Source: Candidatus Aenigmatarchaeota archaeon (lineage in GTDB: Archaea; Aenigmatarchaeota; Aenigmatarchaeia; Aenigmatarchaeales; Aenigmatarchaeaceae). From it: DNA of 64,000 bases. The position numbers were made by a program. Where the stretch lies: assembly GCA_043802485.1 (NCBI GenBank), contig JAZDKZ010000006.1, forward strand, positions 134,817-198,816. The letters run 5' to 3'. Shown here piece by piece: positions 30,001 through 33,000 of this stretch (position 1 is the first letter of the stretch; each line of letters opens with the position of its first letter).

Positions 30001-33000
30001 ACTGCCGAATCAACCTTTTCTAAAATTTCTTCGTCCTTCTCTATTGTGTTAACGGTCTTCTCCACTCCTTCAAAGAACTTTTTAACGTCCTCTGGATCCT
30101 CCAGACCAAAGTAATTGGCAAATTCCTTTGTCGGAACCAGGGCCTTTGTCCTGCTCTTTTTTATTGTGTTTATCAAACCCTTTTCTTTCAGAACCTTCAC
30201 ATACTCGTAGGTCCTGTTGCCTATCACCTTCACTATTTCCGACTGGGTTATGGGCTGCTTGTACGCAACCAAGGCCAGCACCCTCAGCAAGCCCCTTCCC
30301 AGGTCCTTGTACGGGGTAAGGCTTCTCACAGAATGCGCATACTCTGGCTTTACCCTTATCTGGAAGCCTTGGATTGTTTCAAGAATGTAGACGCCATGCG
30401 ACGACAAGCCCATCTCTTTTTTTAATTCCTCGATAATATCCTTGACTTTCTCCTCGTCGCTCTTGAACATCTTCGAAAGGTCCTTTAGGGAAATCGGCTC
30501 ATTGGACATGTACAGGGCTGCTTCGATTGATGACCTTAGCTTTTCTTCTCTCATTAAATCCCTAATTAATATTACCAGACAATTAAAATATGCTTTGCGT
30601 CACTCGGCCTTCTTCAGCTTCACGGTTATCTCTTTGAACATTTCGTTCTGCATCAAATCTATCTTGCCGTCCTGAGCCAAGTGCAGTAGCGGTATCAGCG
30701 TTTCAACTATCTCCTTTCTTGCCCATTTTTTCACAACCCTGGAGAACTCTATGTCGTCCACTTCTGTAAGAGCATGGTTTATGTCTGCCAGCAACCTGTT
30801 TATCCTTTCTGTTATGTCCTCCTCTGCTTGCGGCATGGCAAAGTTCACAGCCCTTTTCACCCTTCTCTTTCTATCAACTCTTCTTTCCTGTACGTCGTAT
30901 GCCTTCTTCAGGGCGGATATCAGCTCGTCCAAGGAAACATTCCTTAAAGGCAGTCTCTTGATGGGCGGTTCCAATGGAGGCACCTGAGCGAGAACGCGGA
31001 GCATGTCGTCCGGTTCCTTTTCAGATTCAGGTATCAGGACCCTATCCTTTTTCTTTGTCAGCACGTCTGACTTCATCCTCAGCAATATCGAGGCTATCAG
31101 AATGAACCTTGCCGGAATCCTAAGGTCCATGCTTTCTATCCTCTTGAGATAATCGAGAAAAACGTTGGAAAGCCTTATTATGTCAACAGACCACGGGTCC
31201 ATCCCCTCCTCAGCAATTATTTTTACTATTACGTCCTCCCAGCTGGGCTCGGAAACCATCAAATCGATGAGCTGTTGGTCAGTTAGCATCTAAATCCAAT
31301 AAAAGCTTTATATTGTCCTCATATAAATTTATGTAGAGCATTATGAGGAAAAACGTTATTATAATGGGAGCAGCTGGCAGGGACTATCACAACTTCAACA
31401 TGTTCTTCCGCGACAACAAGAACTACAAGGTCGTTGCCTTCACGCATGCCCAGATACCCTACATTGTCAACAGGTTCTATCCGAAGGTCCTGGCTGGCAA
31501 GCTTTACCCCAAAGGCATACCAATATTTCCCGAAAGCAAGCTGCAGAGCCTTATTGAAAAGTACAATGTTGACGAGGTCGTTTTTGCTTATTCTGACGTA
31601 TCGCATCTGGAAGTGATGGAAAAGGCTTCACTTGTCCTAGCTAGCGGAGCTGATTTCAAGATAATGGGTCCCAAGTCCACAATGCTGAAATCAAAGAGGT
31701 TCGTGATATCTGTCTGCGCCTCTAGAACAGGAGCAGGCAAGGGTCCGGCTACGAGAAGGATATGCCATATCCTGAGATCAAAAGGCATAAACTATGTGAT
31801 CATAAGGCATCCCATGCCTTACAAGGATTTGAGCAAGATGATTGTTCAGAGGTTCGCCTCTGTCGACGATTTGAAGATTCATGATCTGACAATAGAGGAG
31901 AGGGAAGAGTACGAGCTGCATGTTGAGGACGGGGACGTTGTCTATGCTGGCGTTGATTATGAAAAGATTTTAAGGCAGGCTGAGAAGGAGGCCAAGGTCA
32001 TCATCTGGGAGGGCGGCAACAACGATTTGCCGTTCATCAAGCCTGACTTCCATATCGTGGTCGTGGATGCCAGAAGGCCTGGTCACGAGGTTTACTATTA
32101 TCCTTCTGAAGCTAACTTGAGGATGGCTGATGTTGTCATAGTCAACAAGGTGGCGACTGCCAATCCAGTGGACATAGAAAAGGTGGTCAGGAACGTGGAA
32201 GCCATAAACAGCAAGGCCAAGATAATCAAAGCAGCGATGCCTATTTCTGTTGACAGGCCTGAGCTGGTCGAGAGAAGGAGGGTCCTGCTGATAGAGGACG
32301 GGCCCACGCTTACGCACGGCGGTCTTGACTTTGGTGCTGCGACCATAGCTGCAAAGAGCCTTGGCGCCTATGTCATCAACCCGAGGATGCAGGCTGTCGG
32401 CTCGATCAAGGACGCTTTCATAAAGTACCCTCACCTAGGAGCCGTGCTTCCTGCCATGGGATACTCCAGGAAGCAGCTGAGCGAGCTGGAACAGACCATC
32501 AACAATATAGACTGCGACACCGTGCTGATAGGGACGCCTGTTGATTTGAGGAACATTCTCAACATAAACAAGCCTTCTGTGCGTGTCCGCTACGAGATGA
32601 AAGAGATTACAAAACCTGACTTGGAAGATGTTTTGAAGAACGCTCTGAGAAAGGTTTAGTTCTACAAAGTTGAAAGCCTCGAGAGGGATACACTAAAAAG
32701 TTAGAAGCCCTTAATTTTATAATCTGATTTTACCTATAATTTTAGTATGGCAAGACAATATGGTTTTGGAATCAAGCCTATCAAAATTCAACCTATAGGA
32801 CTTGGCTTTGAAAGAAAAGATAAAAAAAGAATTCCAAAAAAGATACTACGAAGAATGGTCTGGGAAAGGGATAAAGGTAGATGTAAGCTATGTGGAGTTA
32901 AAATTCGTGCTGGTGAAGATTGGGATTTAGCAAGAATAAAAGCAGGTTCTAAAGGAGGAGAATATACTTATGCTAATTGTTTTGTAGCTCATCATACTTG

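What a model noticed while it worked through the whole genome (the two positions that open the first line are those of the whole stretch)
31343..32659. Stand-alone arginine synthetase (ArcE) as a one-step ATP source in an archaeon without ATP synthase
g00680 (438 aa, no Pfam/NCBIfam row) is a full-length orthologue of ArcE of Thermococcus kodakarensis, the enzyme that turns arginine + ADP + Pi into citrulline + NH3 + ATP. The genome has no ornithine carbamoyltransferase, carbamate kinase, arginine deiminase, argininosuccinate enzymes or ATP synthase, so ArcE would work alone as a substrate-level ATP-yielding step, next to PEP synthase and ADP-forming acyl-CoA synthetase.
Evidence so far: 58.5% identity over aa 2-431 to TK2200/ArcE, E 3e-184. 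No OTCace, carbamate kinase, ADI or ATP-synt rows; ATP-synt_ab absent in the six-frame search. ArcE homologues (E<=1e-30) in 64 of 151 sampled genomes of the phylum, 38 of 89 high-quality ones. The ArcE paper lists Thermococcales, Crenarchaeota, Lokiarchaeota and bacteria, not DPANN (PMC11032458, passages read, call 99).
(Added by a program. Inside this text positions count along the whole contig: contig position 134,817 is position 1 of the stretch shown here. "Call 12" and the like, gene names such as g00115 and contig names such as C1 are that model's own, and its searches are not shown. The text may have been shortened before it was handed on; [...] marks where a part breaks off. The agent that wrote the report below was given it as the finding of a first reader that could run no searches.)

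Follow-up and report, generated by a model that had tools for sequence, protein, structure and literature searches.

The report
Lone arginine synthetase in tiny archaea
A tiny archaeon in which no ATP synthase was found keeps an intact gene for the recently discovered enzyme arginine synthetase but lacks the two genes that normally follow it, so it likely makes ATP from arginine in a single step and would export citrulline as waste; over a third of its sampled relatives that carry the gene show the same cut-down arrangement.

Summary
The ORF is an intact 438-aa ArcE orthologue (58% to Thermococcus ArcE) in an Aenigmarchaeota genome. No OTC, carbamate kinase, ADI/CtlX, ArgG, CPS, ATP synthase, PGK or pyruvate kinase was found. 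The absence of arcB/arcC is real: a same-genus genome has them at a site that is contiguous and without them here, and 34 of 89 arcE-bearing phylum genomes lack both. The gene stays under purifying selection (dN/dS 0.056). Best reading: catabolic, one ATP per arginine, citrulline exported (0.55). Corrections: the ArcE paper's Table S1 already lists arcE in DPANN and arcE without arcA/arcC in five archaea; arcE is not enriched where ATP synthase is missing (26/37 with, 63/164 without); and this copy has Gly at the Mg-binding Walker A Ser, with Asp-to-Glu at the Walker B position, so activity needs testing. The scan met ArcE on other DNA before (51 notes), including a stand-alone copy read as biosynthetic, none in Aenigmarchaeota. 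New variant of a known kind.

The parts
31343..32659 (+). arcE, arginine synthetase orthologue, 438 aa, single copy
   Evidence: keeps 130 of 143 near-invariant columns; confident model (pLDDT 93) with cDPGS/LpxK as nearest solved folds
31724..31744 (+). P-loop, residues 128-134 RTGAGKG; Gly134 stands where the family has Ser/Thr
   Evidence: Ser or Thr in 316 of 324 aligned rows
32009..32026 (+). EGGNND, residues 223-228; Glu223 replaces the family's Asp at the inferred Walker B position
   Evidence: end of strand E219-223 in the model
31290..31342 (.). 53-bp divergent intergenic region with an A-rich stretch and TTTATAT at 31307-31313 (resembles an archaeal BRE/TATA; motif recalled, not tested)
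   Evidence: sequence printed
29976..31289 (-). scpB and scpA, divergent neighbours; mark the conserved chromosomal site of arcE in this order
33358..35835 (-). smc, conserved convergent neighbour (a small HNH gene, 32747-33178, lies between)
7499..9182 (.). Site where same-genus genome G126 carries arcC, a GH5 gene, arcB, a class III aminotransferase and an M42 peptidase; here three other genes fill it
   Evidence: G124 also lacks the block at this site
3824..7498 (+). Aminotransferase, iorA and iorB: amino-acid fermentation route that would feed the ADP-forming acyl-CoA ligase; physiological context

Best explanation
This is an intact ArcE-family gene left on its own after the likely loss of arcB and arcC, and it likely runs in the breakdown direction, arginine + ADP + Pi to citrulline + NH3 + ATP, with citrulline predicted to leave the cell as a waste product. 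Shown: orthology, absence of the downstream genes at the syntenic site, recurrence across the order, and purifying selection. Inferred: arginine comes from peptides or from the host, possibly through the single APC permease (C7:18612-19934); the yield would be one ATP per arginine, equal to the whole three-enzyme deiminase pathway, from one gene; the reaction is near equilibrium, so flux needs citrulline export; the Gly134/Glu223 pair is a compensated Mg site, not a dead one. It would be one of three substrate-level ATP sources found (with PEP synthase and the Ior/acyl-CoA ligase route), not a replacement for ATP synthase.
For: Orthologue at 58%. No citrulline-making route (OTCace 25, CarB 81) and no citrulline-using enzyme found. 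Real absence: syntenic site contiguous in G000 and G124; arcC of the three family members that keep it forms one clade (support 93); 15 of 18 arcE genomes in the order lack both genes, whereas 0 of 40 arcC genomes lack arcE and 1 of 40 lacks arcB. dN/dS 0.056 for the stand-alone pair G000-G124 versus 0.050 for a full-pathway pair; stand-alone copies deviate at 9.3 conserved columns on average (17 rows), full-pathway copies at 9.8 (11 rows). Catabolic neighbours in relatives: arcE overlaps the end of acetate-CoA ligase alpha in G014, G030, G077, G109, follows an Xaa-Pro peptidase in G013, G048, G089, and follows an APC permease by 16 bp in stand-alone G051. Of 29 longer relatives most are fusions to OTC, carbamate kinase or a class III aminotransferase. 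No PGK or pyruvate kinase. With the published Keq of 10 and assumed mM pools, ATP/ADP of 10 or more is reachable in 15 of 18 settings. Arginine/citrulline exchange and citrulline excretion are discussed for bacteria (PMC5300872 passages); arginine breakdown powers the episymbiont TM7x (PMC12815258 abstract).
Against: No activity data. Gly134 removes the hydroxyl that binds Mg in the nearest solved relatives (cDPGS T150; LpxK T52A lowers kcat 3000-fold). The branch to G000 is about 1.7 times longer than that to G126. No citrulline exporter is identified; APC permeases are not enriched in stand-alone genomes (25/34 versus 138/201) and G000's is only 28% identical to G051's arcE-linked one. ArcE is commoner with ATP synthase than without (26/37 versus 63/164). 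Arginine decarboxylase-like and agmatinase-like genes would compete for arginine. T. kodakarensis ArcE was assayed at 80 C and needs high ADP (PMC11032458). 11% of the genome is missing.
Confidence: 0.55

Rival explanations
1. The G000/G124 copy has changed function: the Gly134/Glu223 site gives much lower turnover, another guanidino substrate or nucleotide, or a sensing role.
For: Gly at 134 arose in the branch that lacks arcBC, while G126 keeps Ser and Asp. Eleven other near-invariant columns also differ. A faster branch. Literature on the Mg ligand.
Against: Most of those other changes are shared with full-pathway G126. Gly co-occurs with Glu in 7 of 7 distinct close homologues from two independent clades, and the sisters P0003/P0004 carry Ser+Glu, which suggests compensation; G089 has the pair along with arcB and arcC. 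Two divergent representatives have Gly+Asp, but both have damaged neighbouring motifs. 15 of 17 stand-alone copies read keep GKS, so the stand-alone state does not depend on the variant.
Confidence: 0.15
2. ArcE is catabolic but not alone: citrulline is used by an unrecognised enzyme, or by arcB/arcC in the unassembled 11%.
For: 89% completeness. An earlier scan note pairs ArcE with CtlX in a CPR bacterium. The genome has a group 4 [NiFe]-hydrogenase-like operon, whose canonical maturation needs carbamoyl phosphate.
Against: Syntenic site intact without the block in two genomes. DDAH/CtlX-type family in 6 of 201 genomes, none of the 34 stand-alone ones. No ADI or nitrilase family in G000. No recurrent partner next to arcE in 22 stand-alone neighbourhoods. 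HypF and HypD are missing across the family, even in G126, so the hydrogenase does not argue for hidden OTC.
Confidence: 0.12
3. ArcE runs in the synthetic direction or as a buffer, making arginine from citrulline taken from the host or environment.
For: The reaction is reversible, and citrulline rescues arginine auxotrophy in T. kodakarensis. ArgG is absent. An earlier scan note reads a stand-alone bacterial ArcE this way.
Against: No route to make citrulline. It costs ATP in an ATP-poor cell. Ks for ammonium is about 100 mM. Relatives place arcE next to catabolic genes.
Confidence: 0.12
4. The gene is a decaying relic of the full pathway.
For: Partners were lost; non-canonical P-loop.
Against: Intact frame; dN/dS 0.056 at dS 1.56 after the loss; as conserved as housekeeping neighbours (86% versus 68-95%); whole families are stand-alone (f4 6/6, f18 5/5).
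Confidence: 0.04

Closest known systems
Arginine synthetase ArcE (TK2200) and the ArcE-ArcB-ArcC pathway of Thermococcus kodakarensis (PMC11032458; PMC13260591)
   Same: Full-length orthologue, 58% identity, 130 of 143 near-invariant columns; amino-acid-fermenting setting with aminotransferase, Ior and ADP-forming acyl-CoA ligase.
   Different: No ArcB or ArcC, so no ornithine, no carbamoyl phosphate, no second ATP; no ATP synthase found; P-loop GKG with Glu at the inferred Walker B position.
Archaea with arcE but no arcA/arcC in SI Table S1 of PMC11032458 (Methanothrix thermoacetophila, two Halodesulfurarchaeum-type rows, Ignisphaera aggregans, Ca. Nitrosocaldus cavascurensis)
   Same: arcE without carbamate kinase.
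   Different: The table does not score arcB, and the parts read do not discuss these cases; here arcB is absent too and the state is order-wide.
Arginine deiminase system of the episymbiont Nanosynbacter lyticus TM7x (PMC12815258, abstract seen)
   Same: Arginine as an ATP source in an ultrasmall host-dependent cell; one ATP per arginine.
   Different: Three enzymes plus a transporter, ending in ornithine; here one enzyme, predicted to end in citrulline.
Cyclic 2,3-diphosphoglycerate synthetase and LpxK
   Same: Nearest solved folds; cDPGS also has Glu at the position of E223.
   Different: 15% identity or less; sequence E 1e-4 to cDPGS versus 0.0 to ArcE. Database labels 'cDPG synthase' or 'GTPase' on close hits do not fit.

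Membership tests
ArcE sequence family | Paper's criterion: BLASTP E < 1e-100 to TK2200, length > 380 aa (Fig. S10 legend) | tested here: met
   438 aa, 58.2%, E 0.0 to the primer-matched protein
ArcE sequence family | Closer to ArcE than to the cDPGS outgroup | tested here: met
   cDPGS E 1e-4 over 92 aa; nests among ArcE orthologues
ArcE sequence family | LpxK/cDPGS-like P-loop fold | tested here: met
   model pLDDT 93; top Foldseek hits cDPGS then LpxK
ArcE sequence family | Family-conserved residues retained | tested here: met
   130 of 143 columns, the same count as full-pathway G126
Canonical P-loop NTPase site | Walker A GK[S/T] with the Mg-binding hydroxyl | tested here: not met
   GKG at 132-134, with D223E; hence a variant site
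Arginine synthetase activity | Arg + ADP + Pi = citrulline + NH3 + ATP | not testable with these tools
   needs purified protein
[quoted passage not shown] | Ornithine transcarbamoylase ArcB | tested here: not met
[quoted passage not shown] | Carbamate kinase ArcC | tested here: not met
Arginine deiminase pathway | ArcA / amidinotransferase-fold enzyme | tested here: not met
Arginine/citrulline exchange | A transporter that moves both | tested here: inconclusive
   one APC permease and one EamA protein, both under every specific cut-off

The most novel reading that the evidence does not exclude
Stand-alone ArcE is a one-gene power plant that lets these DPANN symbionts tap host energy through an arginine-citrulline shuttle: the symbiont imports arginine, makes ATP, hands citrulline back, and the host spends its own ATP to rebuild arginine. 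This would be energy parasitism with no ATP/ADP translocase and no ATP synthase, reached several times in the phylum by dropping arcB and arcC.
Probability: 0.15. Interest if true: 0.85.

Novelty: new variant of a known kind. Interest (0 to 1): 0.5.

Why it matters
How DPANN archaea without ATP synthase or full glycolysis make ATP is an open question. ArcE sits in 44% of sampled Aenigmarchaeota under the labels 'GTPase' or 'cDPG synthase', and the phylum's metabolic survey does not mention arginine in its main text (PMC8407114). If the lone enzyme works catabolically, it is the shortest amino-acid-to-ATP route I could find, and it predicts citrulline release that a host or neighbour could use. 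It is cheap to test by expressing one gene. The enzyme itself, and its presence in DPANN, are already published.

Tried and rejected
Hidden citrulline-splitting partner: no ADI, DDAH/CtlX or nitrilase family (nitrilase tested in G000 only); no recurrent neighbour in 22 stand-alone neighbourhoods besides scpA/scpB/smc and family-specific genes. Assembly gap as the cause: rejected by synteny and drop-out controls. ArcE as compensation for missing ATP synthase: rejected by the cross-table; the phylum test covered A/V-type subunit A only. APC permease enrichment: none. Recent foreign origin: GC3 0.62, 82nd percentile of 314 long ORFs; conserved site and an order-level clade (64, 113) point to vertical descent. 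Motif scan is weak: it missed ArgRS, which the HMM found, so only HMM or BLAST absences are relied on, except ArgH. The sigma-70 scan is uninformative for an archaeon. No RNA holder listed. Complex prediction for PyrI with ArcE was not available, so nothing was folded. A first tree run did not finish; FastTree and quick IQ-TREE trees were used, without bootstrap. Figs S10 and S11 of PMC11032458 are pictures; only their legends were seen, and they may show more DPANN rows.

Full report
Observation. Window 31343-32659 (+) is one open frame of 438 aa, single copy. The closest named hits are labelled Aenigmarchaeota, as 'GTPase' or 'cyclic 2,3-diphosphoglycerate synthase'. To get the reference enzyme I searched 133 genomes of a Thermococci-containing class with the published TK2200 forward primer. 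Nine matched with up to one mismatch and I translated seven; three match both primers exactly and are 57.9-58.3% identical to the query, E 0.0. The query keeps 130 of 143 columns that are at least 95% conserved in 82 panel rows. The AlphaFold model is confident (pLDDT 93) and its nearest solved folds are cDPGS and LpxK, as reported for TK2200. No ArcE structure was found by sequence.

What the genome lacks and has. Family searches with working controls found no ATP-synt_ab, OTCace, carbamate kinase, ADI, DDAH/CtlX type, nitrilase, ArgG, CarB, PGK or pyruvate kinase. tblastn with relatives' ArcB, ArcC, class III aminotransferase, PorA, AtpA and AtpB was also blank. Present are PEP synthase, acetate-CoA ligase alpha and beta, IorAB with an aminotransferase, type III Rubisco, agmatinase-like and arginine-decarboxylase-like genes, one APC permease and one EamA protein. 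The genome is 89% complete.

Is it really alone? Same-genus G126 has arcC, a GH5 gene, arcB, an aminotransferase and an M42 peptidase between a 116-aa gene and iorB. In this window those flanks lie 1.7 kb apart (7498-9183) with three other genes between. G124 of the same genus also lacks the block there. The arcC genes of the three family members that keep them form one clade (support 93; their arcB genes do not), which favours loss. In 201 phylum genomes, arcE is in 89 (one weak hit dropped; several of the 89 are partial or carry a stop), OTC in 72 (101 matched, I counted 270 bits or more and took the other 29 as ATCase or other), arcC in 40 (33) and A/V-type AtpA in 37 (34). Cross-table: E+B+C 39, E+B 15, E+C 1, E alone 34; 29 of the 34 lack AtpA, and 28 have no transcarbamylase match at all. 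Every arcC genome has arcE and only one lacks arcB, so drop-out is too low to explain 34. In the order, 15 of 18 arcE genomes are stand-alone. Kin are not independent, but the tree needs about five changes of state among 30 labelled rows.

Is it maintained? dN/dS is 0.056 (dN 0.087, dS 1.56) between the two stand-alone congeners and 0.050 for a full-pathway pair. ArcE is as conserved as its housekeeping neighbours. It sits between scpA and smc in several genomes of the order.

The P-loop reads RTGAGKG, with Gly134 where 316 of 324 rows have Ser or Thr, and Asp223 is Glu (61, 71). In cDPGS the matching Thr binds Mg, and LpxK T52A loses 3000-fold in kcat (PMC10690619 and PMC6286764, passages). 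Among close homologues Gly occurs only with Glu (7 of 7 distinct proteins, two independent clades), and the sister proteins have Ser+Glu, so Glu likely came first and allowed the Gly (71, 79). Among 89 of 150 distant representatives that cover both sites, one is Gly+Glu and two are Gly+Asp, the latter with damaged neighbouring motifs. Compensation is inferred, not shown. The branch to this genome is about 1.7 times longer than that to G126 (113). Of 17 stand-alone copies read, 15 keep GKS.

Mechanism. The cell has no recognised way to make or use citrulline, so citrulline must cross the membrane in either direction. The catabolic direction is favoured: ATP sources are few; relatives couple arcE to acetate-CoA ligase, peptidases or an APC permease; fused forms join ArcE to OTC, carbamate kinase or an aminotransferase; and synthesis needs very high ammonium. 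With Keq 10 (measured at 80 C) and assumed pools, useful ATP/ADP ratios are reachable unless citrulline and ammonia build up far above arginine, so export is needed. The yield would be one ATP per arginine, the same as the whole deiminase pathway (PMC5300872 passages). No exporter is identified, and APC permeases are not enriched in stand-alone genomes. ArcE does not compensate for missing ATP synthase: 26 of 37 AtpA+ versus 63 of 164 AtpA- genomes carry it, and 101 have neither.

What is known. I read parts 1-4 of 6 of PMC11032458 and its whole supplement text (Figs S10/S11 as legends only). Table S1 lists arcE with arcC in a Micrarchaeota genome and in AR10 and AR20, and arcE without arcA/arcC in five rows. 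It does not score arcB and has no Aenigmarchaeota. PMC13260591 (part 1, discussion, passages, supplement term search) covers Thermococcales only. PMC8407114 (passages) notes the lack of ATPase in Aenigmarchaeota and has no 'arginine' in its main text. PMC8407392 (passages) reports ArgG/ArgH absent from most DPANN. PMC12815258 was seen as abstract and outline. Searches found no paper on ArcE in Aenigmarchaeota or on ArcE acting without ArcB; subscription papers are not covered. Earlier scan notes describe ArcE in many other genomes, none with this phylum among the words searched.

Verdict. A real, conserved, stand-alone ArcE, recurring across an order of DPANN archaea: a cut-down variant of a known pathway. 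Catabolic one-step ATP production is the best reading (0.55).

Noticed in passing
L167:5328-7180 (G024), L165:526-2385 (G117), L173:5909-7746 (G154), L166:1421-3249 (G191), L183:5395-7238 (G160): In family f18 a full-length pyrI (ATCase regulatory subunit; over the cut-off in 3 of 4 scanned) lies directly upstream of arcE in 5 of 5 arcE genomes, near pyrE/pyrF and an APC permease, yet no PyrB/OTC family gene was found in any of the five. Either a relic of a pyrimidine cluster or an orphan nucleotide sensor reused to control ArcE. Binding is untested.
   Followed up: partly
window 41199-46554: Group 4 [NiFe]-hydrogenase-like operon with intact RxCGxCxxxH and DPCxxC motifs, a C-terminal extension and a HycI-type protease, conserved in 7 of 17 genomes searched, but no HypD in 17 of 17, no full HypF in 5 of 5, and no carbamoyl phosphate source in G000. 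How the site is matured, if at all, is unexplained.
   Followed up: partly
L181:3910-6599 (G014), L182:2997-5689 (G030), L168:5823-8535 (G077), L188:4792-7513 (G109): In family f14 arcE overlaps the end of the ADP-forming acetate-CoA ligase alpha gene, with an aminotransferase divergent; this family has arcE in 17 of 17 and arcC in 0 of 17.
   Followed up: partly
L108:1498-2832 (G089), L190:5042-6352 (G080), P0124, P0162, P0185, P0188: A second ArcE clade with GKGT and ESGNND/EGGNND motifs; G089 also has a 261-aa amidinotransferase-fold gene.
   Followed up: partly
window 39735-40433: A 232-aa ORF that by eye resembles a LAGLIDADG homing endonuclease ends at or in a tRNA-Pro-like sequence near 39740; possibly a mobile element at a tRNA gene (not scanned).
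   Followed up: no
window 32747-33178: Small HNH gene with a lysine-rich tail between arcE and smc; relatives have other small genes or none at this spot.
   Followed up: no
window 27907-29424: A HAD hydrolase and a methanogen-type thymidylate synthase here; G126 instead has SHMT and ThyX at the matching site.
   Followed up: no
G166, G104, G100, G067: AtpA matches in four f14 genomes run through TGA/TAG stops with a 552-aa open frame; probably a shorter C-terminus, not checked.
   Followed up: no
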